A stretch of DNA of 64,000 bases from an uncultured Pirellulales bacterium (GTDB lineage: Bacteria; Planctomycetota; Phycisphaerae; Sedimentisphaerales; Anaerobacaceae). This document shows, piece after piece, positions 3,806 through 24,721 of the stretch (its first letter is position 1; each line of letters starts with the position of its first letter). Location: contig CAZKYP010000001.1 of the NCBI GenBank assembly GCA_964556885.1, positions 2,122 to 66,121 on the forward strand. The letters are read 5' to 3'. Made by a program: the position numbers and the translations under genes. The notes under the pieces are model-generated. The model was not told the DNA's origin and did no database searches. It was given only the letters and a program-made list of their open reading frames with translations.

Positions 3806-5845
3806 TTAACTATTGATTCCGAGGGCTTCCATCTGGCTCTGTAGCAAAGCCAATGTTTTTTCAAGGCGGGCGAATCGGGCAATTAATCTTTCCTCCTTTT
3901 TAGTAAGACGTTCTTCCTCGTTGTCAATTTTATCCTGTAGGTTCCCTATTTGATCTTTGACGTACTCCTGGTCGATTTTTATTGATCCGGTTGTTACCTT
4001 AAGCATATTATCCAGTGCGTCCTCGATCGCACCGGTAAAACCTTGTTTGACCCTGACTTTGGCGGTGAAGGTTCCGTCCTGACTTAAGTCTATGGTTAAT
4101 TGAAGGGCGTTCTCGGGATTCACAGGATAGCCGTTGTCATCGAAAGTGCTGTCTCCGGTGACAACATTGCCGCTGGCGGTGGCGTCACGATATGTCGATT
4201 CTGATGAAAGTTTTATTCTGGAACTGGTGATTACTCCGCCGTTGATGACAACTTCCACGTCATAGTTGCCTGCTGTCGTGTAGTTGCTGCTGGCACTGTA
4301 AAATTTTACTGTGTTACTATCGCTGCTGCCACTTTTGTCTGCTCCAATCAGGGCCAGAACGCCCATATAATCTTCAGCTATGGCTTCGTCAAAAACGTTT
4401 GAGTTCAGGTTTAGAAGGCCTTCTTTATCAAGCTCGAGCCCGATTAGACCCGGCATCAGAAAAGTATCGATGTCCTGTATAAACCCGCTGGTCTGAGATA
4501 TTAGCGGCGTGAGAATTTGGGAGCGTATTGTTGAGACGATATAATCGCCCATCAGCGTGCCTGCGGTTTTTTCGACCGTATCATATCCCGTCATTTCCTG
4601 AATATAGGTAGCAACCAGATTGTAAGCATTTACCATAGAAGTCAGTTTTTCTTTGACTGACTCAATATCTCTTGTCAGCGTTATCTCCTCTCCCGCGGCA
4701 TCGGTAGTATCGTGCAGGTGTAATGTCACACCGGAAATAACATCATCTATTGTGTTAGAGCTCCTGCTTATCCATGCTTCAGGCGGATAGCCGTCGACTC
4801 TAATCTGGCTGTCCTGTGCCGACTGCGTCTCGAGAAAATCCGCTTCCGCAAAACCTTCCAGATCCGCCTCAGCCGTCGTAGGACCTCCCTCAACCGAAAC
4901 AGCCATTGTGGGCAAGGTCAATGTGGCCGCAGAACCATTGTCATTGTAGGTCAAATTTATTGAAAGGCCGCTTGTACCATATGTACTGTCCGTAAGGACT
5001 ATCTGACCGTTAACCAAAGTTGCCTTGGCAATTCCATCGAAGGCGTCGTTGATTTCCGAGATAAGGTGAGTCAGTTTTGTATTGCTTGTAATACTGAGAT
5101 TCACCTGGGCTATCGCGTCTCCATTGTGGTCGGTCCCGATAATTTCTATTACCTCACCGCCTTCGAGCGGGTTTTCTCCGAACTGGTCGAGGTCTGTTAT
5201 CTTCGTTGAAAGTGTGGCGTTATCACTGTCAACGGTAAATGATGAATCAGCCTGCCATACTTCAGTGCTGCTGGCGTTAATCGAAATTGCATAATTAGAA
5301 CCTGCGCTGTTTCCGTTCAATACCAGATGATATGTGTTATTGTAATATAAAAGACCTGCGGTAACGCCCGGATTATCGGCGTCGTTATTGATCAGACCGA
5401 CGAGGTCCTGGAGGGTTGTGGTCTCGGTTGTTGTGATTACTGTCTCCATGTGATTATATGAATATATAAATGTCCCGGCTCCGACATAATCTTCCGCGTA
5501 TTCTATGCCGCTTGAGTGAATCCATCGCTCCGCGGTCGCAAGTTGATTGACGACAACCGTGTGATTGCCTTCGAAGGCGTTGTAAGATGCCTCGGCGGTT
5601 AATTTGTCGGAATCGCTGGATGAAACTGAAAAAGCGCGAAGCTCATTCGAATCGGACAGGGCCCTGACGGAACTCCTGAAGTTGCTTAGTTTGCTGTCGA
5701 GGGTGCTAAGTGCGGTTTTTCTCTCGTCCCATGTATCCTTTCGCTCTTCATACATATCGAGTGTTTTGCGCTCGATAGCCATTAACTGTGAAATAAGCGT
5801 GGATGTGTCGATTCCCGATAAAAGACCTGAAAGTTGTGTTGCCAT
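3806..5845 (-). CDS. fliD: Flagellar filament cap protein FliD (hook-associated protein 2), long form of 679 aa
   Basis: The N-terminus reads MATQLSGLLSGIDTSTLISQLMAIERKTLDMYEERK. The C-terminus has the coiled-coil ERLTKKEERLIARFARLEKTLALLQSQ. The central domain is large and S/T/N-rich. Confidence 0.93.
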   Translation of the reverse strand: MATQLSGLLSGIDTSTLISQLMAIERKTLDMYEERKDTWDERKTALSTLDSKLSNFRSSVRALSDSNELRAFSVSSSDSDKLTAEASYNAFEGNHTVVVNQLATAERWIHSSGIEYAEDYVGAGTFIYSYNHMETVITTTETTTLQDLVGLINNDADNPGVTAGLLYYNNTYHLVLNGNSAGSNYAISINASSTEVWQADSSFTVDSDNATLSTKITDLDQFGENPLEGGEVIEIIGTDHNGDAIAQVNLSITSNTKLTHLISEINDAFDGIAKATLVNGQIVLTDSTYGTSGLSINLTYNDNGSAATLTLPTMAVSVEGGPTTAEADLEGFAEADFLETQSAQDSQIRVDGYPPEAWISRSSNTIDDVISGVTLHLHDTTDAAGEEITLTRDIESVKEKLTSMVNAYNLVATYIQEMTGYDTVEKTAGTLMGDYIVSTIRSQILTPLISQTSGFIQDIDTFLMPGLIGLELDKEGLLNLNSNVFDEAIAEDYMGVLALIGADKSGSSDSNTVKFYSASSNYTTAGNYDVEVVINGGVITSSRIKLSSESTYRDATASGNVVTGDSTFDDNGYPVNPENALQLTIDLSQDGTFTAKVRVKQGFTGAIEDALDNMLKVTTGSIKIDQEYVKDQIGNLQDKIDNEEERLTKKEERLIARFARLEKTLALLQSQMEALGINS

Positions 5846-5939: not shown

Positions 5940-8900
5940 TTAATAAATGGCTGTCTGCATTTGTTCAGCATACTTTTGTCTGCCGAGATCGCATTTTTGC
6001 AGCAATTGACGGATTTGGTCGTTATTGGGGTCCATTTTGAGGCATTCATTCAATTCCGACCAGGCCTGTTCAAAAGCTTTTTTGGCGTAAACAGGGGATG
6101 AGTTTGAATTTATGAAATTCTGGCCTATTGAAAGGTAAGTTGCGGCGACCAGACATTTGGCGTGTAATGACCTTTTCTCGGGGGCTATCTTGTCCCAGGC
6201 TACATCCGGAAACAACTCATCATAACTGAAACTCTCCGTAAATCGCTTTAGAACCTCAAAATTTGCCCGTGCCCCTTCATGTGAAGGTTTTCTTGAAACA
6301 CTATCAAGTACCATTCTTCTAAGGTACAACGGTGCTTTAAGGTGGTGGGCTTTTAATCCGTGTTTAACAAACAGCCGTATCATGTCGTAATCCATGCTGT
6401 TTCTAAAACTGTCATCGAACTTTCCGATCTTGTCAAAGACGCTCTTTCTGATACAGGTCCTGAACGGCACAACTGGAAATCCGCAGTGAAACAGGTCTCT
6501 GATAAGATATTTTCGATCCGTGTACTCCGGGCGTTCAATCACCCGGGTCGGTCTGCCAATGGTATCGATAAGATAATCGTCGCAATAAATAAGGTCGGCG
6601 TCGGGACATTTTTCAAATTCCTTTAAATGTGATGAAATGTAATCCGGAGTCATCATATCATCGGCATCAAGAGGCACGATAAAATCACCTGATGCTTTTT
6701 TCATACCGAGATTTCGGGCGGTATAAGGCCCGCCGTTTTCCTTGTAGAAGTATTTAATCCGTGGGTCTCCGAAGCTCAATACCGCATCCTTAGTGTGATC
6801 TGTGGAACCGTCATCAACTACAATCAGCTCGAAATTCATATAGTTTTGAATCAGTATGCTTTCAATCGCCTCTATGATATAATTTTCCATGTTATATACG
6901 GGCATTATAATCGAGACCAGGGGATTGTCTTTGTGTTGGTAGATTGGGAAAATACCCAAATACTCTCTGCCATATCTCCTGCCGACCTTGTACCTCTCGT
7001 ACCAACTGTGAATCCTTCTGCCATGTTCGATTCCATCCCTGTTATAATAGTACAGCCCCAAAAATTCCGGTATGTGTTTGAAATCGTATTTTTGGGAAGT
7101 ACGAAGCCAAAAATCCCAGTCTCCCGAACAAGCTAATGACTCGTCAAAAAAGCCCAGTTCATCATGAAGTGTTTTTCTCCACATCGGCTGTGAACCAACA
7201 CAACAGCCGAAGAGCAGTCTTTCTTTACTGTATTCAGACCTTTTGGCCAGTTCTATACAGTTATGGTTTTCAAAAGTGCCGTTGGGTGTATCTGTGCATA
7301 TCTGGTCGCCATAAATAAGTGCTATTTCCGGATTTTTCTCCAGTGTGCGGGCCATAATTTCGAGGGCATCCTTACGATGCCGGTCGTCCGTATTGGCATT
7401 TGTCAGGTATTTCCCGCGGGCCACCCTGACAGCACGGTTCCATGCCGTGTAGATTCCCTCACGACAGTCGGTTTTGATGTAGGATATGTTATTATATTTA
7501 TTCTGGTATTCACGAACGATTGCATCTTCGTTCTGTTCCGAGCCGCTGTTGACAATTACAATCTCCAGCTTATCTGCTATTGTCTGCTGAACCAGGTCGT
7601 CCATGCAGCCTCTCAGGAATTTCTCTGCATTATATGTCGACACTATCGCCGAAACCAGATACCGGCTTTCCGGACCGGCGGAGCTTTCAGAAATAGCTTC
7701 GCTCTTTTGCGGAGCGGCCGGTAACGACGGTGCGTTTTCCAGTTTGGCAAGCACGGCTTTCAGACTCGCTGTTTGCTCCTGTGGCATATTCAAGCGATTA
7801 TCGTTCAGTAGCGTATGATAAATCTGTTTGACTTTATCGTATTTTCCATGGTTGAGGTAACACTGGGCAAGCTTCGTGCCGGTGCTTATGTAGCAGTCGA
7901 TTTGTGCCGTCTTGTTTTTTTCGACATCAGAGCTTGTTTTTAATTTTCGTTCAATGAATTCATCTGATTGCATTACGGAGGAAAATACGGATTCAAGCAG
8001 TATCTCGGCTTCTGTGAATTTGCCGAGCTTGGCATACAGAGTACCGAGCAGATAACGTCCCTTGAGCAAGTCCGGCTCAAGGTTCACTGCTTTCAAAGCC
8101 CATTCAGCAGCTTCCTGTGGAGAATTTTCCTGTAGAAACAGGCAGTTGCTTAAGAGTTTAAGATAATCTTTTTCAAATATCCTGGCATTTTGCGGATACA
8201 AGCTGCGGATATACTGCAGATACAATTCGATATCGGGCCATTTTTTGCGTGCCATTTTGAGCATTTCTTTTTCCCGCAGGTTTTTCTCGATGCGATGCTC
8301 GAAGTCGACTTTTGGTTCATGATATACTATCACATCGGGGGCATATATTATGCAGTTAATCTTCTCATTTAGTGATTTGTATATCCTGTATGAAAGCTCC
8401 CGGTTCTCGTTCCCGAACAGGTCGGTATCATATCCGTCGACCTTGCAGAATATATCCTTTCTGAAGGCACAATGTGAACTGACTTCACATGTGGTATGTA
8501 TAACATTATCGCCCAAATCATAACTCGCGGGTGCTGTTTGTGAGTCCGTGGAACTTTTCGGCAGTACCTTTCCTCTCAGGCCGCAAATGTTGTGTTTTGC
8601 GAAGTTCGCAAGAATATTAGCGACAAAATTTTTGTCCGGCACTGCGTCGTCGTCAAGGAACGCGAAATAGTCAGCCCTTGCCTTCGATGCGCCTGTATTT
8701 TTTGCGTATGACGGGCCGAGGTTTTTGCTTAGCTCTATACAGCAAAGCCCGCATTTGAATCTCTCGGAGATGGTTTTTAATTCGGATAATTCACCATCGT
8801 TGCTTATAACAATTATCTCGAAATCTGTCTCGGTTTGGTTTTGCAGGGCGTTAAGATTTTCATTTAATTGCTGCGGCTTATTATAAGTAACAATTACGAC

Positions 8901-11900
8901 GGACAATTTCGGCTTTGTACCACCTCTCAAATCCCATTGGTTCTTGATATAATCCGTGCGGGAATCTGCTGCGGCGATTTTTGTGAGGACCTTCTTTTTC
9001 CATATCTGTATTTCAGGCCAGTTGGAAAACAGGGGATTGTTACTTATACCGTTCCAGTCAATAATCTTACAAGCCTGCAATGCATAGTTATAGCACTTGC
9101 TAATCATAATGTTTTCGTAACTGGTTAGAGCGCTGTTGGATTTGCAGACTGCGTCCGGACTTAAAAGACGTTCGCCCAATGTCTCATTGATGTAAAGAAA
9201 ATTGTATTTTTGAGTCAGTCTGAACCAGAATTCGTAGTCGCCCGAAATCATGAAGCCTTCGTCGAAATATCCGAGCACATTATGTACTTCTTTTCGCCAC
9301 ATGGGTTGTGAGCCGGGGAAGCACTGGCCGCTAAATAATCGATCTCGTGAAAATTCACCGTTTATCCTCTCACCAACTGCAACTCTTCGTCCGTCTGTTT
9401 CGCTTACTTCTACCTGGTTGGCATAAACCATGACTTTGTCCTGATTTGCATCCAGCGCCTTTGCCATGATTTCGAGGGCATCGGGACGATGCCTGTCGTC
9501 GGTATTGGCATTTGTGATGTATTTGCCGGTGGCGATTTTGATACCCCTGTTCCATGCAGCATAGATTGTTTCGCGTTTCTCAGTTTTGATGTATTTTATA
9601 TTATTGTATTTTTTTTGAAATTCTTTTACGATCAGGCCTTCATTTTGCTGAGAGCCGCTGTCAATCACTATTATTTCGACCTTCTCGGATATAGTTTGCT
9701 TTTCCAGGTCTTCAAGACAATCGTGAATGAAATTTTCTGAATTGTATGTGGATACTATGGCACTAACAAGGTATTGTTTCTCGTGAGCATGTTCTTTACC
9801 GGTCTTGGAATTTTGTATAGATGAATCGGGGATTTTTGTTAACCAGCTATTAACAGCCTGTTCGATCATCTCAACGGTTATGGTGTTTATGCAGCGGATG
9901 TCCTGGCCGTATTTGCACCGCCAGTTGCAGCCGTAACAATCCATCTGGGTATAAACCAAAGACGTCTTTGGACTATACGGCATGAATCTGCCGAAATGGC
10001 CGCCACCAATGATTACAACATGCGGACAATTGACTGTCGCCGCTATATGTACCGGTGCCGATTCGACTCCAATACATAACTTTGCCCTTTCTAATAAAGC
10101 TGCTAACTGCCTGAGGGATGTTTTACCGCAAAAGTTGCGCACGTTGGGGTGTTCGGTTGTTTTGATAATGTTTTCCGCATTCTGGCTACTCTGTTTAGAG
10201 CCACAGATTAAAATTGGATAGTTTTTCAAACATGACATCAATTCCGCCCACTTGGAATCGGGCCAATTCCGCTTCTCATACTGTGCGAAGGGGCATATTA
10301 TCATCGGCTCTTGTATGTTTAGGTCCTTCAGCAGCTTGTCGGCATAATCCCTGTGCTCAGGTTCCAGCCATAAGGTAGTTTCATACGGATGAATAACTGA
10401 TAGGCCAAGTCCCTCGACAAATTCGCTATTTCGCTCAGTCTCAAGCATTTTGCCGGCTTTTGCGGGAATGAGTTTCGTGAAATATGGATTGTTTGCATGG
10501 ACCTGTTCTGCCGGCATGTTGGTATCGTCGCCGACCGAGGCGATTTTTTCTTTGGCTCCACTGTTTATTACAATAAAGTCGGTAACCTTATCCCTCGAAT
10601 AAACAGGACAAATTGCAACATCATACTTCGCGGCCTGGATGCGACTCATAAAATCGGCGGCATAATTCTGATCGTAGACCATCGACTTGCGATGATTGAC
10701 AATGACTTCGTCGATATAGGGACATGCCTCGGCGAGTTCTATAGTGCACTCCCTCACAATAATCGCAATATGTGAGTTTGGATAGAGTTTTCGGTAATAG
10801 GGCAGGGCCCCTGAGAAAATCACGAAATCCCCGATTCCATCTGTTTTCACAATAAGAACCTTATGTTGTTGTTTGGAAATCGCCTGGACTGCTGTTTTCA
10901 AAGCTGTAACGTCAATATTTGTTTTGTCTTCATTATGGACAAAAGTGTCGGATTGATGGCCGTAGGTAGGTGTTGATGCCCTGTCACCTGACGATGAAGT
11001 GTGTGCAACAGGACGTAACATAAAACAGCCCAGGCTATAGGCGAGCATGGGTTCTCGTTGCAATGCCGACTCTTCATCTACTTCCCGCCACTGGTTGTTT
11101 TCGTCCTTTATCCAAAAACAACTGCTTTCTATCTCCCAGTTTTTGAGGAGTTTTACAAGTCTTGTTTGTCCGTAAACGCGATGCAGTGAGCCGACAACCA
11201 TGTCAAGACCTACCGGAATTGTCAGAAGCATTTTGCCGTCCGGTTTAATGATTTTACTCATCTGGTTCATTATTTCCAGGTCGTCGTCTATTCCCTCTTT
11301 GGTTACTCCGTATCTACCTACCAGTCCGGAGTGTTCGACTGACGAACAATTGATTATTAAATCATAACTTTGCGGCGTCCAATCCTGCTGCAAAAAATCG
11401 CCCTGAATGAAGTGTATATCTCCCAGACCGTCAAGAGAGACTGTAAGGGGAGTCATATCTATCGCTGTTATCCGGTATCCGAGCTGAGTTGCGAAACGTG
11501 TCAGTTCGGCGGTTTGGCCGCATCCGAAGTCAAGAAGCCTTGATCCTTTATTATGGTTATTTGTCATTTTCGTAAGCAGGCTTTTTGTGGAGCCCCACTC
11601 AACATCTCTGTCCCCTTTTAGGTCCGGTTTTAATCTGTGTATTTGCTCTGCAAATTGTGCTGAATCCGGATTTTCAGGATCTTTGTTCAGGGCGTTTTTT
11701 GCTTCGACTTCCGCTTCCAGTAATCGACCGAGCCGAGCCAGGCATACTGCTCGTCCGAAGTGAGCATCAATACTGTCTTGAGAATGGATCAGAATCTTTT
11801 CGAATTCCTTTAGTGCCTTTACAATATGACCCTGATTCAGAAGCGTCTGTGCATGTATGATTTGATTTATTGTATTTCCTGTTTCGAAGTTATCAACATT

Positions 11901-14900
11901 AACCGGCAGGTGTGTGTCTTTGTCGAGTTTTTTGTGTTTCGGGGTGAACTTAGCTATGCAGAAACCAAATTTTTCCTTTGAATGAGTTATCAGTTCAAAC
12001 CGTTTATCCTTCTGTATCTCCTGGAAACTATGATGATGTTTGACATGGTAAATATCGTCCAGGGCAATATAACATTCTCCTTGCAGGTTATCTATGAGGT
12101 GATTAAATTCGATATTACCCATGTGGCCGCCGCTGTCAAGAAGGACAAAATCCGGCTTAAAGTCGAATACTTTGAGACATTGATATAGCAAATCGTCGGG
12201 CAGACTGGGAAAATTTGTCTCGTTATAGTAAAGCTCGGCTCTGTTTTCTTCTTTGTGGTCAACGAAAATACCATCATAATCGATATCTGTTATCGTCTTT
12301 CGGGCTATTTCCTCCTTGCTCGGCAACATCGCCCGCGGAACGGACAGGCCGTTAAGTGCATTGACCTTTATGTTATTCGTCTCGAAATATTGTTTCGCAC
12401 GAGTATAATTTTTAGGATTAACTTCGATAGTAAAAAATATTGCATCAACAATACCCAGTCTTTGCAGCGATTTTGTGATTATAGTCGTGGTGCCGGTGCC
12501 AAGATAAGTTCCAGTCTCAATAATCTTTCTTGGTTTGATTTTACTGAATAATTCTTGAATTTTTTCACCGAACGAAGATTCTGCACCAACATTAACTCCA
12601 GTTTTGACATAATCAGCGGCTATCTTAACCTTTTTGGAAACTTTGTCTGTGAGTTCCGAAGGTTCTTTCTGACAGGCTTTTTGTGCTAATGATTTTCGGA
12701 AACTTTCCATTACTTCAGGATGAGAGCCCTCAAAAGGTACAGTCTGTGAATTGATATCGCCAGTCCAGATGGGATATTTTGAATCAATCTCCTGCCTGTT
12801 CGCCGGCATCCATTTCAGGAAACATTCTTTATACCATTCAAGCAGGTCGATATTCCAGTTCTTTCCCCAGCCGTATCTGCAATAAAGCTCGATTTTCTGT
12901 TTTACTTGTTTATCTAAGACATAGCTGTAATGGTAAAAAATTATTCCCATTTGTTTTGTCTGGGTTCCATCCAGCAGGTGCATTTGTTCGGTGGTTTTAT
13001 CGGAGTCGGGCCAGAGCATTGTTGGTGGCCGGTGTGACGTAAACAGGGCGCCGGGAACATACTTAAACAGCCTTCTGTAATGGCACCATTGTTTATAGAA
13101 TGCGGGTGAAACGAAGATGTATTCCAGACCTTTCCAGAAATTGTCCGGGATGAAATTAACCTGTGTAATTGACGGTTCTTTTTTAATAATTTCCTTTATT
13201 TTCTCAAGATGCTCTCTTTTGTAAACCTCGTCGGAATCTATGAGCCAGATATAGTCCCCCGTGACATATTTCAGGGCCTCATTTTGCATCTCACATTTTT
13301 CCGGCCATCTGCCCTGGATAAGCCTGATTTTATTTTGCGGGTCCGGGAAAGACTGTATAAATTCTACTGTTCCATCAGTAGAGCTGCCATCCGGATTGGC
13401 TGCGAACATGCAATTTTCAACGGCGCCTTCTATTATGATTATCTCGTGTGCAAAATCATAAACCGACTTCAGGCTGTATTCGATAAAGGGCATTCCATTC
13501 AGGACGATCATTACGAACGAAAACTTAGGCTCATGTAGCAACTTAGGCTGATCGATAGAATGCGATATTGGCGAAATAATTTCGTCTCGAAGGTTTGTCT
13601 TACTATTTCTTGGATCAAAGGAAATAAGCGATTCTGCAGAAGACGAGTTTTCGTTATTGACGGTCGTTATCTGGTTATTGTTCCGTTCATATTCATTGAT
13701 TGCCTGTCTGAGTCTTTCGAGCAGATTTTTAGCACCGCTGTGTTCGGGCTGGAACCTGAGTTCTGTCTCACAGGCTTGTAGAGCCGAATATAATTTACCG
13801 GCCTGTGTGTAGGCGGCGGCCATAGCAAAATTCAGGTTGGACATATCGGGACAATCCGAGTGTACTTCATTAAAATAATTCAATGCCTCCTGCAAATTGC
13901 CGTCACGCATAAATTCGATACCCATTTTGAGAAGTTCTTCCGCTATTTTATCCTGATGAGGTTGCAGGATTCCCTCGGGACAGGATTTGGCCAATCTGAT
14001 AATTGCCTTTGATTTGTGGTGATCAGGTTGTAATTTTAGCTCTTCGGAACCTGCTTTAGCCGCCTCAATCGTCCTGCCCAGCCTGAGTAGGATGTTGGCT
14101 CTTCGGTAATTGAAATTCGGCCGATTTTCTCCTGCTTCCAGCAGCAGGTCCAGATACTCAAGCGCATCTTCTATTTTCTCCTGTTGTTCAAGCTCGGCAG
14201 ACCTCTTTTGGAAATGCTCGGTTATTAAATCCAGCCTGTCACGGTTCGGGCCATTTTTATATGCGAGAGGAGCATACCGTTTTGCCATGTCCCATATCCC
14301 CATATTGCAGTAGTTAATTACGTGCCATGGATATAGACTTGCTATGGCTTTATCCTTAAGCAAACGTATAGGTTCCGGTGTATCGGTATTGTTGCAAAGA
14401 CGCTCAATTGCGGCCTTTCTCGATGTCATCAGCTCTTCCCTGATTTCCGCCTGATAGCTATACGCTGCCGGATGTACTGCATATTTCGACACAAAACATG
14501 ATATGTGTCGAATGGGAAAGACGGCGCCGAGTCTTGCCCAGATTTCGAATTCGCCGCAACCGCTGTATTGTGAAAGTTTGACTGCATCGTAACATTTTTT
14601 TCTGAAAAAACTGGCGCTAAACGGGGGCATTATTTCGGAGCAGATATATTTCTCATAATCCCATTCTTTAGCTTTAACCCAGCCGGTGATATTGCCGTCG
14701 CAGTCAGTATTATAATGGTCACCGTATATCGCTGCCAGTTCAGGATTTTCCGTCAAGTTCCTGACGGCCCAGGAAACTGCATTTGGCAGCAATTCCTCAT
14801 CGGACAAACATGAACCAAAAAATTCTCCGCGTACTCTTGAAAGACAGCGAAAAAATGCGTCTCCCGGTCCTGAGTCCGGTTCGGAGACAAGATTAATTTG

Positions 14901-15101
14901 GTCTCCGTAACTTTTAAGTAGTTCGAGTGTTCCGTCGGTAGACTCGCCGTCCTGCACAATGATTTCAATGTTCGGATAGTCCTGTGCAAGAATACTGTCA
15001 ATCGACCGCCTGACGGATTTTGCGCGGTTTTTCACGAATGAAAAGATGGATACAAGCGGGTATTTATTAGATTCTGTTTGCACAAATCGGTCCTTTATCA
15101 A
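5940..15101 (-). CDS. Giant multidomain glycosyltransferase / methyltransferase / TPR polyprotein (3053 aa)
   Basis: An uninterrupted 9.16 kb ORF. Six GT2-like modules are visible, for example PLVSIFSFVKN...IEIIVQDGESTDGT, KFSFVMIVLNGMPF...STDGT, two YLVSAIVSTYN...TNANTDDRHR modules, KLSVVIVTYNKP...IIVISNDG and PLVSIIMPVYN...LIVVDDGSTDHT...PLDADD. One GT9 heptosyltransferase-like module is present (KVLIVKTDGIGDFVIF). There are two class I SAM-methyltransferase-like modules (IIETGTYLGTGT and LLDFGCGQ). At least four TPR blocks are present. The start is TTG or GTG and overlaps the upstream gene. Confidence 0.85.
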   Translation of the reverse strand: MIKDRFVQTESNKYPLVSIFSFVKNRAKSVRRSIDSILAQDYPNIEIIVQDGESTDGTLELLKSYGDQINLVSEPDSGPGDAFFRCLSRVRGEFFGSCLSDEELLPNAVSWAVRNLTENPELAAIYGDHYNTDCDGNITGWVKAKEWDYEKYICSEIMPPFSASFFRKKCYDAVKLSQYSGCGEFEIWARLGAVFPIRHISCFVSKYAVHPAAYSYQAEIREELMTSRKAAIERLCNNTDTPEPIRLLKDKAIASLYPWHVINYCNMGIWDMAKRYAPLAYKNGPNRDRLDLITEHFQKRSAELEQQEKIEDALEYLDLLLEAGENRPNFNYRRANILLRLGRTIEAAKAGSEELKLQPDHHKSKAIIRLAKSCPEGILQPHQDKIAEELLKMGIEFMRDGNLQEALNYFNEVHSDCPDMSNLNFAMAAAYTQAGKLYSALQACETELRFQPEHSGAKNLLERLRQAINEYERNNNQITTVNNENSSSAESLISFDPRNSKTNLRDEIISPISHSIDQPKLLHEPKFSFVMIVLNGMPFIEYSLKSVYDFAHEIIIIEGAVENCMFAANPDGSSTDGTVEFIQSFPDPQNKIRLIQGRWPEKCEMQNEALKYVTGDYIWLIDSDEVYKREHLEKIKEIIKKEPSITQVNFIPDNFWKGLEYIFVSPAFYKQWCHYRRLFKYVPGALFTSHRPPTMLWPDSDKTTEQMHLLDGTQTKQMGIIFYHYSYVLDKQVKQKIELYCRYGWGKNWNIDLLEWYKECFLKWMPANRQEIDSKYPIWTGDINSQTVPFEGSHPEVMESFRKSLAQKACQKEPSELTDKVSKKVKIAADYVKTGVNVGAESSFGEKIQELFSKIKPRKIIETGTYLGTGTTTIITKSLQRLGIVDAIFFTIEVNPKNYTRAKQYFETNNIKVNALNGLSVPRAMLPSKEEIARKTITDIDYDGIFVDHKEENRAELYYNETNFPSLPDDLLYQCLKVFDFKPDFVLLDSGGHMGNIEFNHLIDNLQGECYIALDDIYHVKHHHSFQEIQKDKRFELITHSKEKFGFCIAKFTPKHKKLDKDTHLPVNVDNFETGNTINQIIHAQTLLNQGHIVKALKEFEKILIHSQDSIDAHFGRAVCLARLGRLLEAEVEAKNALNKDPENPDSAQFAEQIHRLKPDLKGDRDVEWGSTKSLLTKMTNNHNKGSRLLDFGCGQTAELTRFATQLGYRITAIDMTPLTVSLDGLGDIHFIQGDFLQQDWTPQSYDLIINCSSVEHSGLVGRYGVTKEGIDDDLEIMNQMSKIIKPDGKMLLTIPVGLDMVVGSLHRVYGQTRLVKLLKNWEIESSCFWIKDENNQWREVDEESALQREPMLAYSLGCFMLRPVAHTSSSGDRASTPTYGHQSDTFVHNEDKTNIDVTALKTAVQAISKQQHKVLIVKTDGIGDFVIFSGALPYYRKLYPNSHIAIIVRECTIELAEACPYIDEVIVNHRKSMVYDQNYAADFMSRIQAAKYDVAICPVYSRDKVTDFIVINSGAKEKIASVGDDTNMPAEQVHANNPYFTKLIPAKAGKMLETERNSEFVEGLGLSVIHPYETTLWLEPEHRDYADKLLKDLNIQEPMIICPFAQYEKRNWPDSKWAELMSCLKNYPILICGSKQSSQNAENIIKTTEHPNVRNFCGKTSLRQLAALLERAKLCIGVESAPVHIAATVNCPHVVIIGGGHFGRFMPYSPKTSLVYTQMDCYGCNWRCKYGQDIRCINTITVEMIEQAVNSWLTKIPDSSIQNSKTGKEHAHEKQYLVSAIVSTYNSENFIHDCLEDLEKQTISEKVEIIVIDSGSQQNEGLIVKEFQKKYNNIKYIKTEKRETIYAAWNRGIKIATGKYITNANTDDRHRPDALEIMAKALDANQDKVMVYANQVEVSETDGRRVAVGERINGEFSRDRLFSGQCFPGSQPMWRKEVHNVLGYFDEGFMISGDYEFWFRLTQKYNFLYINETLGERLLSPDAVCKSNSALTSYENIMISKCYNYALQACKIIDWNGISNNPLFSNWPEIQIWKKKVLTKIAAADSRTDYIKNQWDLRGGTKPKLSVVIVTYNKPQQLNENLNALQNQTETDFEIIVISNDGELSELKTISERFKCGLCCIELSKNLGPSYAKNTGASKARADYFAFLDDDAVPDKNFVANILANFAKHNICGLRGKVLPKSSTDSQTAPASYDLGDNVIHTTCEVSSHCAFRKDIFCKVDGYDTDLFGNENRELSYRIYKSLNEKINCIIYAPDVIVYHEPKVDFEHRIEKNLREKEMLKMARKKWPDIELYLQYIRSLYPQNARIFEKDYLKLLSNCLFLQENSPQEAAEWALKAVNLEPDLLKGRYLLGTLYAKLGKFTEAEILLESVFSSVMQSDEFIERKLKTSSDVEKNKTAQIDCYISTGTKLAQCYLNHGKYDKVKQIYHTLLNDNRLNMPQEQTASLKAVLAKLENAPSLPAAPQKSEAISESSAGPESRYLVSAIVSTYNAEKFLRGCMDDLVQQTIADKLEIVIVNSGSEQNEDAIVREYQNKYNNISYIKTDCREGIYTAWNRAVRVARGKYLTNANTDDRHRKDALEIMARTLEKNPEIALIYGDQICTDTPNGTFENHNCIELAKRSEYSKERLLFGCCVGSQPMWRKTLHDELGFFDESLACSGDWDFWLRTSQKYDFKHIPEFLGLYYYNRDGIEHGRRIHSWYERYKVGRRYGREYLGIFPIYQHKDNPLVSIIMPVYNMENYIIEAIESILIQNYMNFELIVVDDGSTDHTKDAVLSFGDPRIKYFYKENGGPYTARNLGMKKASGDFIVPLDADDMMTPDYISSHLKEFEKCPDADLIYCDDYLIDTIGRPTRVIERPEYTDRKYLIRDLFHCGFPVVPFRTCIRKSVFDKIGKFDDSFRNSMDYDMIRLFVKHGLKAHHLKAPLYLRRMVLDSVSRKPSHEGARANFEVLKRFTESFSYDELFPDVAWDKIAPEKRSLHAKCLVAATYLSIGQNFINSNSSPVYAKKAFEQAWSELNECLKMDPNNDQIRQLLQKCDLGRQKYAEQMQTAIY
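7040..7664 (-). repeat. Internal paralogous GT2 module, copy 2, within the giant gene
   Basis: Encodes RYLVSAIVSTYNAEKF...VARGKYLTNANTDDRHRKDALEIMARTL...GSQPMWRK...SGDWDFWLR. It aligns colinearly with copy 1. Boundaries are approximate. Confidence 0.8.
9165..9776 (-). repeat. Internal paralogous GT2 module, copy 1, within the giant gene
   Basis: Encodes QYLVSAIVSTYNSENF...IATGKYITNANTDDRHRPDALEIMAKAL...GSQPMWRK...SGDYEFWFR. Short near-identical DNA patches are shared with copy 2, for example gtattggcatttgt. Boundaries are approximate. Confidence 0.8.
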
Positions 15102-15831
15102 AGAAATTGACTCTGCTGTTAAAAAACTCTATCGCTTGTTTGTATCGGTTGGGTGTTCCGATATCGATTATTTTCTCGTTGGTTATAAAAGCGTGACTGT
15201 TCCGGCCGGCCAGTTGCGGAAACAGGTCATATTCCAGCGAGTACTTCATACCAGCAGGTATCATTGGAAGAACCTCTTTTTGAAAGAGATAGATACCTGC
15301 ATTAATATATCCATGTTTATCAATGTCTTTTTTTTCTTCGAAGCCGATGATCCTCTGCGAGTCATCCAGAAAAACAGAACCGTAACTTTCCGTATTTTCA
15401 GTACCGGTTACGACCATTGACATCAAAGCTTCTCTGTCCGAATGGAATTTAAGAAATTCGGTCATGTCGGCGGTACAAAATGAATCGCCATTGGTGACAA
15501 GGAAAGGATTGCTTATTATTAAATATTGAGCATTCTTAATAGCGCCAGCCGTTCCCAGTGGGCTCTTTTCTTCTGATATAACAAACTCGAGTGAGCTATT
15601 ATTATGAATGAAATGAGCAAGAATTACCTCCGATTTATAACCGGCGCACAAGACAAATCTTTCGAAACCGAATCTGCTGAAATATCCTGTAAGAATATCG
15701 AGAAAAGGCTGTTGATTTATCAGGGCCATCGGTTTGGGACGGTCATTGATAATTGGCGCAAGCCGATTGCCCATTCCTCCGCAGAGGATGACAACGTCTA
15801 TTTCCTCAATTCTCTTTTTATTAATGGTCAT
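15067..15831 (-). CDS. Sugar-1-phosphate nucleotidyltransferase (HddC / heptose-1-P guanylyltransferase-like)
   Basis: The N-terminal motif VVILCGGMGNRLAPIINDRPKPMALI (GGxGxRL) is present, followed by PLGTAGAI. It overlaps the upstream kinase gene by 11 nt. Confidence 0.8.
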   Translation of the reverse strand: MTINKKRIEEIDVVILCGGMGNRLAPIINDRPKPMALINQQPFLDILTGYFSRFGFERFVLCAGYKSEVILAHFIHNNSSLEFVISEEKSPLGTAGAIKNAQYLIISNPFLVTNGDSFCTADMTEFLKFHSDREALMSMVVTGTENTESYGSVFLDDSQRIIGFEEKKDIDKHGYINAGIYLFQKEVLPMIPAGMKYSLEYDLFPQLAGRNSHAFITNEKIIDIGTPNRYKQAIEFFNSRVNFFDKGPICANRI

Positions 15832-16816
15832 TATTCGAGTATAGAGTTATTTGACTTCCCAGTGTTTCAAAATGGAAGGGGACGTACAGGAGATTTTTCA
15901 GAGCCTCTTTGACTGCCCGTTGCTTTCGTGGCGGAACAAATAAAAGCATAAAGCCGCCGCCTCCTGCCCCGCATAATTTCCCTCCGATTGCTCCAGCTTT
16001 TATTGCTGCATCGTACATATCGTCTATGACACTCGTGGTTGTTTTGCTCGATAGACTTTTTTTCAGCTTCCATGACTCGTCAAGCAGCTCACCGAAACGT
16101 TCTATTCTCTCACGGTGGTCGTTAAGAATATTTACAGCTTCCTTAACCATGTCCTTCATCGCACTCAGTTCGGAAGTTTTCTGTGAAGTATTGTTAATCT
16201 GTTCGGTTGCGATCTCGGAAGCAGTCCTGGAAAATCCGGTAAAGAACATCATCAAATGATTCTGAAGTTCCTTTATCCTTGATAGCTCTATTGTGATAGG
16301 ATGTACGGAAAAAGCCGCTTTGCCGTTAAATTCTATCAGGTTGAGTCCACCAAAAGCAGCGGCCACCTGGTCCTGTGAACCCACCGCCTCTCCGATGACA
16401 TTCTGCTCGATACAAATTGCGTTCGAGGCGAGTTGTGCCTTGTCGACCATTCTGCCGGTCAATGCATACAAGGCGTTCAAAAGGCCGACAGTAAAGGCAG
16501 AGCTCGAACCGATACCGGACCGTGCGGGCAAATCACCTGTATGCACCATTTCTATACCCTGGTCTATTCCAAGGAACCTGAGAGACTCCCGTACCGCCGG
16601 ATGCCTGATTTGAAGAAGATTATCTACTTCCTCACGCAGCCTGTATCTTATGAGGTATTTATGATCGAAAAACTGGGGTAGATACCGGCAATTTATGTAG
16701 CAATATTTATTTATGGTCGTATTCAGCACTGCACCGCCATTGTCCCTGTACCATACAGGGTAATCCGTACCGCCGCCAAAGAACGAGATACGATATGGCG
16801 TTCTGCTGATAATCAT
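15821..16816 (-). CDS. GHMP-family sugar kinase (HddA / D-glycero-D-manno-heptose 7-phosphate kinase-like)
   Basis: The N-terminus has RTPYRISFFGGGTDYPVWY. The GHMP motif II PARSGIGSSSAFTVGLLNAL and the C-terminal GGKLCGAGGGGFMLLF are both present. Confidence 0.82.
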   Translation of the reverse strand: MIISRTPYRISFFGGGTDYPVWYRDNGGAVLNTTINKYCYINCRYLPQFFDHKYLIRYRLREEVDNLLQIRHPAVRESLRFLGIDQGIEMVHTGDLPARSGIGSSSAFTVGLLNALYALTGRMVDKAQLASNAICIEQNVIGEAVGSQDQVAAAFGGLNLIEFNGKAAFSVHPITIELSRIKELQNHLMMFFTGFSRTASEIATEQINNTSQKTSELSAMKDMVKEAVNILNDHRERIERFGELLDESWKLKKSLSSKTTTSVIDDMYDAAIKAGAIGGKLCGAGGGGFMLLFVPPRKQRAVKEALKNLLYVPFHFETLGSQITLYSNNDH

Positions 16817-17546: not shown

Positions 17547-17618
17547 TCCGCTCTTTTCATTTCGGCTCGAAAAATATGGAACTAATAACCATTTATATAT
17601 CTGGTTTCCGGCGTGTCC

Positions 17619-19076: not shown

Positions 19077-19102
19077 TATGTTAAACTCTCCTGTTTTAAC
19101 AT

Positions 19103-20050: not shown

Positions 20051-20080
20051 TTACACAATCCTTTGTTCCGAATACGAGCA

Positions 20081-22409: not shown

Positions 22410-22472
22410 TTTTTCAGTTTCTCCACTATATCACAAGATTTATATGACAATCTAATTTAACTTCTTGAGTTT

Positions 22473-23273: not shown

Positions 23274-23322
23274 TTTTTATTCTCTTTCAGTGTTTATTGT
23301 TTACTCTTGCAGTAGGAGAATT

Positions 23323-24690: not shown

Positions 24691-24721
24691 ATAAACGTCC
24701 TTTCAGACAAGGTCGACAGGC

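What the first reader, a model, noticed from the sequence alone, without database searches (positions are those of the whole stretch)
5940..15101. A single 3053-aa polyprotein combines six GT2-like modules, one GT9 module, two methyltransferase modules and four or more TPR blocks
The ORF runs 9162 nt without interruption in AT-rich DNA, so it is unlikely to be a chance ORF. Approximate module positions read from the translation (window coordinates):
- GT2-A: 14400-15060
- TPR: 13690-14200
- GT2-like B: 12720-13525
- Class I MT-like (IIETGTYLGTGT): 11950-12560
- TPR: 11630-11880
- MT (LLDFGCGQ): 11010-11560
- GT9 heptosyltransferase-like (KVLIVKTDGIGDF): 9840-10865
- GT2-C: 9165-9776
- GT2-D: 8310-8915
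- TPR: 7800-8200
- GT2-E: 7040-7664
- GT2-F (DDGSTDHT...DADD): 6300-6925
- Helical/TPR tail: 5943-6200
Bacterial glycosyltransferases are normally one or two domains. An assembly-line arrangement of about nine catalytic modules interleaved with protein-binding TPR blocks suggests one enzyme could build and methylate a whole oligosaccharide while docked on a protein substrate. I am not aware of a characterised enzyme with this architecture.
Basis: partly seen in the sequence, partly recalled or inferred. Interest (0 to 1): 0.87.

Follow-up and report, generated by a model that had tools for sequence, protein, structure and literature searches.

The report
Giant flagellar-locus glycosyltransferase fusion enzyme
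A real 3,047-residue gene in an uncultured planctomycete strings seven sugar-adding and two methyl-adding enzyme modules onto one protein, and it sits inside the flagellum gene cluster, so it most likely builds the sugar coat of the flagellar filament; the family recurs in related genomes but I found no paper describing it.

Summary
An uninterrupted ORF at 5940..15101 (-), most likely starting at GTG 15083 (3,047 aa), carries:
- six GT2 modules and one GT9 module, all above Pfam's curated cut-offs;
- one standard class I methyltransferase;
- a second methyltransferase, weak in Pfam but confirmed by profile search and a pLDDT 95 model as a COMT-like O-methyltransferase fold;
- three Pfam-supported TPR blocks. 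The C-terminal tail has no TPR support.

The gene lies in a sugar-biosynthesis island between flgL and fliD, inside a full flagellar cluster of a Phycisphaerae-type planctomycete. The order kinase, nucleotidyltransferase, giant gene recurs in six relatives, and fliD follows directly in three of them. Orthologous giants measure 1,890-4,121 aa.

In three relatives the N-terminal GT2+TPR unit is a separate ~480-aa gene followed by a second giant gene, so the window protein is a fusion. The N-terminal module is conserved, the C-terminal block is widely shared, and the middle modules are swapped between lineages.

Best reading: a soluble cytoplasmic megaenzyme that assembles and methylates the flagellar O-glycan. 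"Polyprotein" is unsupported, because no protease domain is present. It is a new variant of a known kind (TPR-bearing flagellin glycosyltransferases and multi-module GT/MT enzymes such as WsaE). The function is inferred, not shown.

The parts
5940..15083 (-). Giant multidomain glycosyl-/methyl-transferase gene. It encodes 3,047 aa from GTG 15083; the maximal ORF from TTG 15101 is 3,053 aa. The stop codon is at 5940-5942.
   Evidence: It is 100% identical to the NCBI protein P0001. It has no TM segment and no internal DNA repeats.
14214..15083 (-). Module A: GT2 (GT-A fold), aa 1-290. It is the N-terminal module in most homologues mapped. The S-D-E-E motif is invariant and stands in place of DxD.
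   Evidence: PF00535 at 3e-17. PDB sequence hits are K4CP and the WrtF fucosyltransferase. AF2 plus Foldseek support the fold. Homologues are 38-66% identical.
13674..14213 (-). TPR block 1, aa 291-470. Together with module A it forms a unit that is a stand-alone ~475-aa gene in relatives.
   Evidence: TPR_2, TPR_16, TPR_14 and TPR_19 are above cut-off. The helical repeat region has pLDDT around 90. Foldseek matches CTPR, the OGT TPR and SPY. Its last two repeats are 37.5% identical to the C-terminus of the separate GT at 23323-24690.
12594..13556 (-). Module B: GT2 with a long C-terminal extension, aa 510-830. It has a DSD motif.
   Evidence: PF00535 at 6.7e-14, 52.6 bits. It is 68-81% identical in homologues, the best-conserved module.
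11934..12581 (-). Module M1: COMT/Methyltransf_24-like class I O-methyltransferase, aa 835-1050.
   Evidence: The Pfam CmcI hit is sub-threshold. The family has 520 representatives, both stand-alone and embedded. The profile hits COMT-type O-MTs in the PDB at E 2e-4. The AF2 model has pLDDT 94.9. Foldseek top hits are cation-dependent O-MTs with prob 1.0 and TM 0.53-0.61.
11619..11906 (-). TPR block 2, aa 1060-1155.
   Evidence: TPR_2 scores 31.8 bits against a cut-off of 27, with TPR_19 and TPR_16 hits as well. The same T2-M2-GT9 order occurs in P0005 and L006.
10974..11606 (-). Module M2: class I SAM methyltransferase with the LLDFGCGQ motif, aa 1160-1370.
   Evidence: Methyltransf_31, Methyltransf_23, Methyltransf_11 and DUF268 are all above cut-off.
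9819..10886 (-). Module H: GT9 (heptosyltransferase-like), aa 1400-1755.
   Evidence: PF01075 at 9.9e-24, 84.4 bits. PDB sequence hits are 3tov, WaaF 1psw, WaaC, and weakly the protein heptosyltransferase TibC.
8964..9806 (-). Module C: GT2, aa 1760-2040, with a TDD motif. It is a paralogue of module E (49% identity).
   Evidence: PF00535 at 1.2e-28.
8214..8951 (-). Module D: GT2, aa 2045-2290, with a DDD motif.
   Evidence: PF00535 at 8e-23.
7764..8213 (-). TPR block 3, aa 2291-2440.
   Evidence: ANAPC3, TPR_19 and TPR_2 are above cut-off.
6984..7691 (-). Module E: GT2, aa 2465-2700, with a TDD motif.
   Evidence: PF00535 at 1.8e-25. It is 68-76% identical in homologues.
6204..6956 (-). Module F: GT2, aa 2710-2960, with a DAD motif.
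   Evidence: PF00535 at 9.4e-34 and Glyco_tranf_2_2 at 5.7e-20.
5943..6203 (-). Conserved C-terminal tail, aa 2961-3047. It has no HMM-supported TPR; by eye it contains one TPR-like hairpin.
   Evidence: No TPR family was found in segment 10. It is 49-62% identical in homologues and always follows module F.
15067..15831 (-). Sugar-1-phosphate nucleotidyltransferase (HddC-like). It overlaps the start of the giant gene by 17 nt.
   Evidence: PF00483. The best NCBIfam model is HddC, but below its cut-off. It lies directly upstream of the giant gene in L001, L002/3, L004/5, L006 and L087.
15821..16816 (-). GHMP sugar kinase (HddA-like).
   Evidence: GHMP_kinases_N and GHMP_kinases_C. The best NCBIfam model is HddA, below its cut-off. 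Its synteny is conserved.
3806..5845 (-). fliD (filament cap), 94 nt downstream of the giant gene on the same strand. No terminator-like site lies between them.
   Evidence: FliD_N and FliD_C. FliD follows the giant gene in L001, L002/3 and L006.
17025..33181 (-). The rest of the glycosylation island, in order along the window coordinate: RmlC-like epimerase, B12-radical SAM, an unknown protein, rSAM-SPASM, MiaB-like rSAM, Methyltransf_24, Glyco_trans_1_2+TPR, an NAD epimerase, a split transketolase, GT2?/Methyltransf_11, a TPR protein, a GT2, and a TPR+GT4 protein.
33392..34576 (-). flgL (hook-filament junction), the upstream border of the island.
   Evidence: TIGR02550 scores 169 bits against a cut-off of 127.

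Best explanation
The gene encodes a soluble, cytoplasmic, nine-catalytic-module enzyme dedicated to building the O-linked glycan of the flagellar filament. The host is a Phycisphaerae-type planctomycete. The target is most likely flagellin, and possibly other exported filament proteins.

**What is shown**
- The protein has seven glycosyltransferase modules (six GT2, one GT9) and two O-/SAM-methyltransferase modules. Three TPR blocks and Ser/Thr/Pro-rich linkers separate them.
- It has no membrane segment.
- It lies in a nucleotide-sugar biosynthesis island between flgL and fliD.
- A sugar kinase and a nucleotidyltransferase precede it directly, with overlapping coding regions. No terminator-like site lies between it and fliD.
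- This arrangement is conserved in relatives.
- It is a fusion of a GT2+TPR unit, which is a separate gene in some relatives, with a long string of further modules.

**What is inferred**
- The GT2-A+TPR1 unit docks on the protein substrate through its TPR repeats, as FlmG's TPR domain does with flagellins. It transfers the first sugar, perhaps the NDP-sugar made by the two conserved upstream enzymes.
- The other GT modules each add one further residue. All are inverting families according to CAZy knowledge.
- The two methyltransferase modules O-methylate particular residues, possibly as a chain cap as in WsaE/WbdD.
- The internal TPR blocks keep the growing glycoprotein, or partner enzymes of the island that carry a related TPR, close by.
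- Glycosylation would be finished before export through the flagellar type III channel.
- Exchange of the middle modules between lineages would diversify the glycan.
For: **Module inventory:**

**Catalytic motifs and solubility:** a DxD-type motif is retained in all six GT2 modules and there is no TM helix (maximum KD19 of 1.45).

**Flagellar context:**
- FlgE/F/G/A/H/I/N/K/L lie upstream.
- FliD lies directly downstream.
- FliP/R, FlhB, FlhA, FliL, FliM/N and a sigma factor are also in the window.
- No ABC transporter, flippase or polyprenyl-phosphate transferase was found among the ORFs scanned.

**Conserved synteny:** kinase, nucleotidyltransferase, giant gene in L001, L002/L003, L004/L005, L006 and L087, and by ORF sizes L007. 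FliD follows the giant gene directly in L001, L002/L003 and L006.

**Independent assembly:** the identical 3,211-aa orthologue was assembled in two separate samples.

**Split state:**
- 17 stand-alone ~475-aa orthologues of A+TPR1 are 51-64% identical over 98-100% of the query.
- The gene is split in L004, L006 and L007.
- L006's two genes are collinear with the window protein at 44-81% identity, except that a radical-SAM module replaces M1.

**Modularity:** the N-terminal module is conserved, the C-D-TPR-E-F-tail block is shared by the closest relatives, and the middle is variable.

**A+TPR1 model:** it shows a GT-A domain plus a TPR superhelix. Whole-length but weak alignments reach the peptide-glycosylating SunS/ThuS enzymes.

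**Shared TPR tag:** a related TPR is carried by two other island proteins.

**Literature precedents:**
- The TPR domain of FlmG is necessary and sufficient for flagellin binding (PMC7591256).
- WsaE combines an MT with two GT domains, and its methylation caps the chain (PMC2943079).

**Taxon:** FlhA is 78-85% identical to the top 119 other hits, and every one that carries a name is Planctomycetota, including Phycisphaerae, Phycisphaerales and Sedimentisphaerales.
Against: - No flagellin gene is in the window, though the tblastn test used was weak. Glycosylation of this organism's flagellin has not been shown.
- No homology was found to proven flagellin glycosyltransferases. GmaR is not among the PDB hits, and no Maf- or FlmG-type domain occurs in the giant.
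- A separate TPR+GT4 protein with FlmG-like domain order (31625-33181) could be the priming enzyme instead of module A.
- More distant relatives in Desulfobacteraceae and Verrucomicrobiota have no flagellar genes within 8 kb. L087's giant gene is followed by more GT genes rather than fliD.
- The order of action, the donors, the acceptors, and whether every module is active are all unknown.
- A heptasaccharide-bearing flagellin must still pass the narrow export channel. Large flagellin glycans are known in other bacteria (my own knowledge, not checked here).
Confidence: 0.65

Rival explanations
1. The enzyme builds a non-flagellar glycoconjugate, such as a cell-surface polysaccharide, an LPS-like glycan or another glycoprotein. 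Its position in the flagellar cluster would then reflect co-regulation in swarmer cells or simple chance.
For: - GT2, GT9 and MT modules are generic for polysaccharide synthesis.
- The nearest solved relatives are polysaccharide enzymes: K4CP, WrtF and WaaF/WaaC.
- More distant homologues lack flagellar neighbours.
- No flagellin gene is in the window.
Against: - Kinase-nucleotidyltransferase-giant synteny is conserved in six independent relatives, and fliD follows directly in three of them.
- The island fills exactly the flgL-fliD interval.
- No lipid-carrier transferase, flippase or ABC exporter was found among the ORFs scanned.
- The protein is soluble and rich in TPR.
Confidence: 0.18
2. 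The enzyme is a processive polymerase rather than a one-pass assembly line. A subset of the GT modules would act repeatedly to make a long repeat-unit polymer on the filament protein, and the methyltransferases would terminate the chain. The TPR or helical regions would act as a length ruler, as in the WbdA/WbdD and WbbB systems.
For: - Modules C and E are paralogues (49% identity), as is typical of alternating-linkage polymerases.
- MT capping has a precedent in WsaE.
- Multi-module O-antigen polymerases are known (title and abstract of PMC11231755).
Against: - The six GT2 modules are otherwise only 20-30% identical to each other. Seven different GT modules are more than a repeat unit usually needs.
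- A long polymer on flagellin would be hard to export through the flagellar channel (inference).
- Nothing here discriminates directly between the two readings.
Confidence: 0.12
3. The 9-kb ORF is an assembly or sequencing artefact. It would have joined two or more ordinary neighbouring genes, for example through a lost stop codon at the TPR1/module B boundary where relatives are split.
For: - The window's protein is known from a single contig.
- Relatives L004, L006 and L007 have a gene boundary after TPR1.
- One 90%-identity cluster holds both an intact 3,905-aa version and a version broken into 3,483 and 409 aa on another contig.
Against: - The fused A-TPR1-B arrangement with the same spacing occurs in P0004, P0005, P0006 and P0007, which come from different sources.
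- Even in the split relatives the second gene alone is 2,674 to more than 3,400 aa.
- Every module junction except M1|TPR2 is seen in another assembly.
- The identical 3,211-aa orthologue was assembled twice.
- The ORF contains no DNA repeats.
- Domain hits are in one frame along the whole length.
Confidence: 0.05

Closest known systems
FlmG of Caulobacter crescentus (modular flagellin O-glycosyltransferase; PMC7591256)
   Same: - It is a cytoplasmic enzyme encoded with flagellar genes.
- A TPR domain binds flagellins and is fused to a glycosyltransferase domain.
- Its logic is modular, pairing a binding domain with a catalytic domain.
   Different: - FlmG is 596 aa with one GT-B domain that transfers pseudaminic acid, and its TPR is N-terminal.
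- The protein here has seven GT modules (GT-A type GT2 plus GT9), two MT modules and three TPR blocks, and the first TPR is C-terminal to its GT.
- No sequence relationship was detected.
GmaR of Listeria monocytogenes and FgtA-type GT2+TPR flagellin glycosyltransferases
   Same: The domain order is an N-terminal GT2 (GT-A) followed by a TPR/helical domain. This matches the A+TPR1 unit, which is a stand-alone ~475-aa gene in relatives. These enzymes glycosylate flagellin in the cytoplasm (my own knowledge; GmaR paper PMC9638930 listed).
   Different: - GmaR did not appear among sequence or fold matches to solved structures.
- These enzymes add a single sugar and are not fused to further catalytic modules.
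WsaE of Geobacillus stearothermophilus (trifunctional S-layer glycan enzyme; PMC2943079)
   Same: - It is a soluble single polypeptide that combines an O-methyltransferase domain with two glycosyltransferase domains.
- Its methylation caps the chain.
   Different: - WsaE has three modules and works on a lipid-linked glycan that is exported by a Wzm/Wzt ABC transporter and then transferred to protein.
- No such transporter or lipid-carrier transferase is in this island.
- This protein has nine catalytic modules plus TPR blocks.
Multi-module O-antigen and capsule glycosyltransferases (WbdA, WbbB, K4CP chondroitin polymerase)
   Same: - Several GT modules sit on one chain.
- K4CP is the best solved sequence relative of module A (E 3.8e-14).
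- The general principle of diverse organisation of catalytic modules is set out in PMC11231755.
   Different: - These enzymes have two or three GT modules.
- They act on lipid-linked acceptors at the membrane.
- They are not associated with flagellar genes or with TPR blocks.
SunS/ThuS glycocin S-glycosyltransferases and TibC/AAH protein heptosyltransferases
   Same: - SunS and ThuS are GT2 enzymes with a helical repeat domain that glycosylate a peptide directly. They align over the whole A+TPR1 model.
- TibC is a GT9 enzyme that glycosylates a protein (weak hit at E 0.007).
- Both cases show that GT2 and GT9 enzymes can use protein acceptors.
   Different: - The similarity is low (TM 0.30-0.33 for SunS/ThuS; E 0.007 for TibC).
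- These are single-module enzymes with unrelated substrates.

Membership tests
GT2 (Pfam PF00535, GT-A fold), six modules | The HMM match is above the curated gathering score. | tested here: met
   The six segments score 52.6-117.2 bits against a cut-off of 23.3.
GT2 (Pfam PF00535, GT-A fold), six modules | An acidic DxD-type metal/nucleotide-binding motif follows a hydrophobic strand. | tested here: met
   The motifs are DSD, TDD, DDD, TDD and DAD in modules B-F. Module A has S-D-E-E, which is invariant in 19 orthologues. This is a variant form, so its activity is unproven.
GT2 (Pfam PF00535, GT-A fold), six modules | The predicted structure has a GT-A fold. | tested here: met
   Tested for module A only. 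The AF2 model matches WrtF, K4CP, SpsA and 6p61 with prob 1.0, but pLDDT in the GT part is only 60-80. Modules B-F were not modelled.
GT9 (PF01075, heptosyltransferase family) | The HMM match is above the gathering score, with similarity to solved GT9 enzymes. | tested here: met
   The match scores 84.4 bits against a cut-off of 22. Solved relatives are 3tov, WaaF, WaaC and, weakly, TibC.
GT9 (PF01075, heptosyltransferase family) | The enzyme uses an NDP-heptose donor. | not testable with these tools
   The only lead is circumstantial. HddA- and HddC-like genes lie upstream, but both score below the NCBIfam cut-offs.
Class I SAM-dependent methyltransferase (module M2) | HMM matches are above the cut-offs and a glycine-rich motif I is present. 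| tested here: met
   Methyltransf_11 (31.6 against 21.2), Methyltransf_31, Methyltransf_23 and DUF268 all match, and the motif LLDFGCGQ is present.
Cation-dependent class I O-methyltransferase (COMT / Methyltransf_24 / CmcI type; module M1) | The module has a Rossmann-like MT fold and profile-level similarity to the family. | tested here: met
   The AF2 model has pLDDT 94.9. The top 50 Foldseek hits are all class I SAM methyltransferases, nearly all COMT-type O-MTs (prob 1.0, TM 0.53-0.61). The profile reaches COMT at E 2e-4. 13 of 28 family members hit Methyltransf_24.
Cation-dependent class I O-methyltransferase (COMT / Methyltransf_24 / CmcI type; module M1) | The Pfam gathering score is reached by the window sequence itself. 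| tested here: not met
   RMNT_CmcI scores 17.6 bits against a cut-off of 23.2. The module is therefore a divergent sister family rather than a member of a curated Pfam family.
TPR repeat domains | TPR HMMs are above the cut-off. | tested here: met
   This holds for three blocks, aa ~300-470, ~1080-1150 and ~2310-2440. It does not hold for the C-terminal tail.
Flagellin glycosylation island / dedicated flagellin glycosyltransferase | The gene lies within a flagellar gene cluster next to filament genes and is accompanied by nucleotide-sugar biosynthesis genes. | tested here: met
   The island fills the flgL-fliD interval. The synteny is conserved.
Flagellin glycosylation island / dedicated flagellin glycosyltransferase | The protein is homologous to an experimentally proven flagellin glycosyltransferase (Maf, FlmG, GmaR, FgtA). 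| tested here: not met
   No such match appeared in Pfam, PDB sequence or fold searches. FlmG, Maf and FgtA sequences were not compared directly.
Flagellin glycosylation island / dedicated flagellin glycosyltransferase | Flagellin is glycosylated and the enzyme binds and modifies it. | not testable with these tools
   This needs flagella and mass spectrometry or reconstitution. No flagellin gene is in the window.
ABC-transporter-dependent polysaccharide assembly (WsaE/WbdA-type) | Wzm/Wzt transporter genes and a polyprenyl-phosphate priming transferase are encoded alongside. | tested here: not met
   None was found among the window's ORFs scanned with Pfam.
Polyprotein (proteolytically processed precursor) | The protein has an embedded or associated protease and cleavage into separate mature proteins. 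| tested here: not met
   No protease family was found in any segment. Cleavage itself cannot be tested here.

The most novel reading that the evidence does not exclude
These flagellar-locus giants are template-like glycan assembly lines. The order and identity of the modules on the polypeptide would specify the sequence and methylation pattern of the flagellar O-glycan, in the way module order works in NRPS/PKS systems. The substrate protein would be held by TPR blocks while it is passed from module to module. Lineages would diversify their flagellar glycan by swapping middle modules between a fixed priming end (GT2-A+TPR1) and a largely shared finishing block (E-F-tail). This is suggested by the conserved N-terminus, the widely shared C-terminal block, the variable middle, and the clean replacement of the O-methyltransferase M1 by a radical-SAM module in L006.
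Probability: 0.2. Interest if true: 0.85.

Novelty: new variant of a known kind. Interest (0 to 1): 0.6.

Why it matters
Flagellin glycosylation is normally carried out by one or a few small enzymes. How complex flagellar glycans are ordered without a lipid carrier is poorly understood.

A family of soluble 2,000-4,000-residue enzymes carrying up to nine catalytic modules, fixed next to fliD, would offer two things:
- a natural system in which glycan sequence might be read from domain order;
- a tractable entry point, the ~475-aa GT2+TPR unit, for studying how a protein substrate is recognised.

It also bears on three further points. It marks planctomycete flagella as probably heavily and unusually glycosylated, with methylated and possibly C-methylated or thiomethylated heptose-like sugars. 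It extends the known size range of bacterial glycosyltransferases. And its interchangeable, pre-fused GT/MT modules could be useful for glyco-engineering.

If the function were not flagellar, the gene would still be an extreme example of domain fusion, but of less general interest.

Tried and rejected
- **Exact look-up of the window protein.** Three attempts failed, even though the identical protein is in the protein collection. No independent assembly of this exact gene was obtained.
- **The one allowed genome-contig scan.** It used generic GT2 patterns, so only L007-L011 were close relatives and the other ~75 loci were ordinary GT2 genes. The window's own genome is not among the species representatives.
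- **PDB sequence search with M1 alone.** It found nothing meaningful, so a family profile and a structure model were needed.
- **tblastn with E. coli FliC termini.** It found no flagellin in the window. It also missed FlgL, so it is a weak negative.
- **GmaR as structural neighbour of A+TPR1.** It is not among the top 50 fold matches.
- **Giant-gene relatives outside Planctomycetota (P0010, P0017).** Neither has flagellar neighbours within 8 kb. The flagellar link is therefore claimed only for the planctomycete clade.
- **Literature searches.** Five queries found no description of such giant flagellar-locus glycosyltransferases. Subscription journals are not covered, so this is not proof of absence.
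- **Internal repeat-mediated mis-assembly.** Rejected, because the ORF has no direct repeats of 25 nt or more.
- **Recent tandem duplication as the origin of the six GT2 modules.** Rejected, because only C and E are close (49% identity) and the others are 20-30% identical.

Full report
**1. The observation**

The window has one ORF of 3,053 codons at 5940..15101 on the minus strand. The next longest ORF in the window is 835 aa. GC content is 42-46% across the region and does not differ from the flanks. At that composition a stop-free run of this length has a chance probability of about e^-177 (my arithmetic).

The TTG at 15101 is only the first possible start. A GTG at 15083 is preceded by AAGGA at a 7-nt spacing. 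The identical protein deposited in NCBI (P0001, 3,047 aa, contig of 67,952 bp) starts there. Nineteen orthologous N-termini align from that methionine. The upstream gene ends at 15067, so the two coding regions overlap by 17 nt. There are no direct DNA repeats of 25 nt or more inside the ORF.

**2. Domain map**

I cut the protein into ten overlapping segments and scanned them against Pfam.
- GT2 (PF00535) is found six times, always above the gathering score (52.6-117.2 bits against 23.3).
- GT9 (PF01075) is found once (84.4 bits against 22).
- The 'LLDFGCGQ' module matches Methyltransf_11/23/31 and DUF268.
- TPR families exceed their cut-offs in three blocks.

I followed up that last module.
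- An exhaustive search found 520 representative proteins carrying it. Some are stand-alone 215-250-aa proteins and very many are 1,000-3,195-aa proteins with the module embedded.
- A profile of 28 members reaches COMT-type O-methyltransferases in the PDB at E 2e-4.
- 13 of 28 members hit Methyltransf_24.
- The AlphaFold model (pLDDT 94.9) matches cation-dependent class I O-methyltransferases with probability 1.0 and TM 0.53-0.61.

So the second methyltransferase is real but divergent.

The C-terminal tail has no TPR support, although it is conserved. All six GT2 modules keep a DxD-type motif; module A has an invariant S-D-E-E. Modules C and E are paralogues (49% identity). The other pairs are 20-30% identical, so the array is not a recent tandem duplication. 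The protein has no predicted membrane helix (maximum 19-residue hydropathy 1.45), and hydrophobic-poor linkers sit between modules. No protease domain is present, so 'polyprotein' is the wrong word; this is a multidomain fusion enzyme.

**3.

The whole window is a flagellar regulon.
- On the minus strand, in the direction of transcription: flgE, flgF/G, flgA, flgH, flgI, flgN, flgK and flgL (TIGR02550 above cut-off). A 27-kb sugar island follows, then fliD.
- On the plus strand: fliP, fliR, flhB, two sigma-54 activators, fliL, fliM/N, flhA and a sigma factor gene.

The island contains, in the direction of transcription:
- a TPR+GT4 protein, a GT2, a TPR protein, and a GT2-like/methyltransferase;
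- a split transketolase and an NAD-dependent epimerase;
- a Glyco_trans_1_2 protein with a C-terminal TPR, and a Methyltransf_24;
- three radical-SAM enzymes (MiaB-like, SPASM, B12-binding);
- an RmlC-like epimerase, an HddA-like kinase and an HddC-like nucleotidyltransferase;
- the giant gene.

fliD starts 94 nt after the giant's stop, with no terminator-like hairpin between them. Nothing among the ORFs scanned resembles an ABC exporter, a flippase or a polyprenyl-phosphate transferase.

FlhA is 78-85% identical to the top 119 other hits. Every hit that carries a name is Planctomycetota, including Phycisphaerae, Phycisphaerales and Sedimentisphaerales. The source is therefore an uncultured planctomycete of that group.

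**4. Relatives**

The full-length query found 25 other large proteins of 1,675-4,121 aa. Those with a source name are mostly Planctomycetota MAGs, for example MHC4753627.1 at 3,905 aa.

The gene order kinase, nucleotidyltransferase, giant recurs in five relatives, and by ORF sizes in a sixth, L007.

| Locus | Giant gene | What follows |
|---|---|---|
| L001 | 3,889 aa | fliD |
| L002/L003 | 3,211 aa | fliD, then flhB/fliR/fliQ/fliP/fliO as in the window |
| L004/L005 | 475 aa + second gene of more than 3,400 aa | locus ends |
| L006 | 483 aa + 2,879 aa | fliD |
| L087 | 4,121 aa | more GT genes |

L002 and L003 are two different samples that assembled the identical 3,211-aa ORF. This is independent evidence that such ORFs are real.

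Searching with the first 470 residues alone gave 17 stand-alone proteins of 473-486 aa. They are 51-64% identical over 98-100% of the query. In L004/L005, L006 and L007 this ~480-aa GT2+TPR gene is followed by a second giant gene of more than 3,400, 2,879 and 2,674 aa respectively. The window protein is therefore a fusion of the two. The same fused A-TPR1-B arrangement with the same spacing occurs in P0004-P0007.

Module-by-module mapping shows three things.
- Module A is the N-terminal module in most homologues mapped.
- The block C-D-TPR3-E-F-tail ends the protein in L004, L006 and L007. In L002 the same modules occur in the same order, but about 700 aa of other sequence separate TPR3 from E.
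- The middle differs between lineages.

L006's two genes are collinear with the window protein at 44-81% identity, except that a radical-SAM module sits where the window has the O-methyltransferase M1. Every junction of the window protein except M1|TPR2 is seen in at least one other assembly.

One 90%-identity cluster contains both an intact 3,905-aa form and a form broken into 3,483 and 409 aa on another contig. Breaks, whether real or caused by sequencing errors, do therefore occur in this family.

**5. Structure of the conserved N-terminal unit**

The AlphaFold model of residues 1-470 has mean pLDDT 80.5. The GT part scores 60-80 and the helical part about 90. It shows a GT-A domain followed by about seven helical hairpins.

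Foldseek gives the following matches.
- The GT part matches the GDP-fucose-dependent WrtF, K4CP, SpsA and a Leptospira GT2.
- The helical part matches consensus TPR proteins, the TPR domain of O-GlcNAc transferase, and SPY.
- Weak whole-length alignments (TM 0.30-0.33) reach SunS and ThuS, which are GT2 enzymes that glycosylate a peptide held by a helical domain.
- GmaR does not appear.

The last two repeats of TPR1 are 37.5% identical to the C-terminus of the separate GT at 23323-24690. They are 31% identical to the small TPR protein at 29319-29969. This suggests a shared docking partner or mutual assembly.

**6. Mechanism**

Shown:
- nine catalytic modules on one soluble chain;
- a position inside a flagellar sugar island that is conserved across relatives;
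- a separable GT2+TPR head;
- modular variation of the middle.

Inferred:
- The head docks on flagellin through TPR1 and primes it. The FlmG TPR domain is necessary and sufficient for flagellin binding (PMC7591256).
- The other GT modules extend the chain.
- The MT modules O-methylate it, possibly as a cap as in WsaE (PMC2943079).
- The work is done in the cytoplasm before type III export.

Confidence by level:

| Claim | Confidence |
|---|---|
| Domain inventory | about 0.97 |
| The gene is real and fused | about 0.9 |
| Flagellar glycosylation role | about 0.7 |
| Module A is the primer and action follows module order | 0.35 or less |

The island's TPR+GT4 protein has FlmG-like domain order and is an alternative primer. 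No flagellin gene lies in the window.

**7. Comparison with known systems and novelty**

Flagellin glycosylation islands at flgL/fliC/fliD, and TPR-bearing flagellin glycosyltransferases (FlmG, GmaR, FgtA), are established. So are multi-module GT or GT/MT enzymes (WsaE, WbdA, WbbB, K4CP). This protein works like a combination of the two, but it is not a sequence member of any proven flagellin glycosyltransferase family.

What is new is the scale (seven GT and two MT modules) and the evidence for cassette-like module exchange in a conserved flagellar position. Five literature searches found no description of it. The sequence itself is already public, though the collection gives no source name for it. 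Where relatives carry a name, it is simply 'glycosyltransferase'. I rate it a new variant of a known kind, with interest 0.6.

Noticed in passing
window 17619-22409 (-): Three radical-SAM enzymes sit inside the sugar island. One is a B12-binding rSAM whose best NCBIfam match is a P-/C-methyltransferase family (17619-19076). One is an rSAM-SPASM protein (20081-21199). One is a MiaB/RimO-like methylthiotransferase (21189-22409). This is unusual for nucleotide-sugar pathways and hints at C-methylated or methylthiolated sugars. A B12-rSAM recurs in L001, L006 and L088.
   Followed up: partly
window 25674-27501 (-): A split transketolase (N-terminal and pyrimidine/C-terminal halves as two genes) lies in the island, next to an NAD epimerase. 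It is accompanied further along by HddA/HddC-like genes. The same set recurs in L001 and in the Desulfobacteraceae locus L088. It may supply a heptose or another higher-carbon sugar. No GmhA or GmhB was identified.
   Followed up: partly
window 31625-33181 (-): A 518-aa protein has an N-terminal TPR and a C-terminal GT4 (GT-B) domain and lies directly after flgL. This is the domain order of the proven flagellin glycosyltransferase FlmG. It is a candidate priming enzyme that competes with module A of the giant.
   Followed up: no
window 23323-24690 (-) and 29319-29969 (-): The C-terminal TPR of the Glyco_trans_1_2 protein is 37.5% identical to the last two repeats of the giant's TPR block 1, and the small 216-aa TPR protein is 31% identical to them. 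Several island proteins therefore seem to share a common TPR 'tag'.
   Followed up: partly
window 19103-20050 (-) and 42014-43255 (-): Two ORFs of 315 and 413 aa have no Pfam or NCBIfam match. The first lies in the sugar island; a ~329-aa gene with no Pfam hit sits at the corresponding position in L001. The second lies between flgE and flgF.
   Followed up: no
L006 11476-20115; L004 4379-14278: In relatives the second giant gene carries modules absent from the window. L006 has a radical-SAM domain in place of M1. L004 has asparagine-synthase/GATase, Methyltransf_21, TylF and GT4 domains. These megaenzymes can therefore also embed sugar-modifying chemistry beyond GT and MT.
   Followed up: partly
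protein cluster of P0004: Orthologues at 90% identity or more exist in two states. One is an intact 3,905-aa gene (MHC4753627.1). The other is a 3,483-aa plus 409-aa pair on another contig (MHC4636440.1 and MHC4636441.1). This reflects either a real frameshift or pseudogene, or a sequencing error.
   Followed up: no
window 45949-52647 (+): Two sigma-54 enhancer-binding proteins (FleQ/FleR-like) flank two TPR proteins of 835 and 288 aa in the middle of the flagellar cluster. The role of the large TPR protein is unknown.
   Followed up: no
window 61567-62622 (-): A GH130 beta-1,4-mannooligosaccharide phosphorylase-like gene lies at the edge of the flagellar region. It is probably unrelated.
   Followed up: no
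L088 (Desulfobacteraceae, GCA_027404635.1): A 2,094-aa relative carries the same module A at its N-terminus. It sits behind a similar sugar-gene set (transketolase, B12-rSAM, RmlC-like, epimerases) and is followed by two more TPR-GT proteins. No flagellar genes lie within 8 kb. The sugar pathway plus TPR-GT combination therefore extends beyond planctomycetes and may not always be flagellar.
   Followed up: partly
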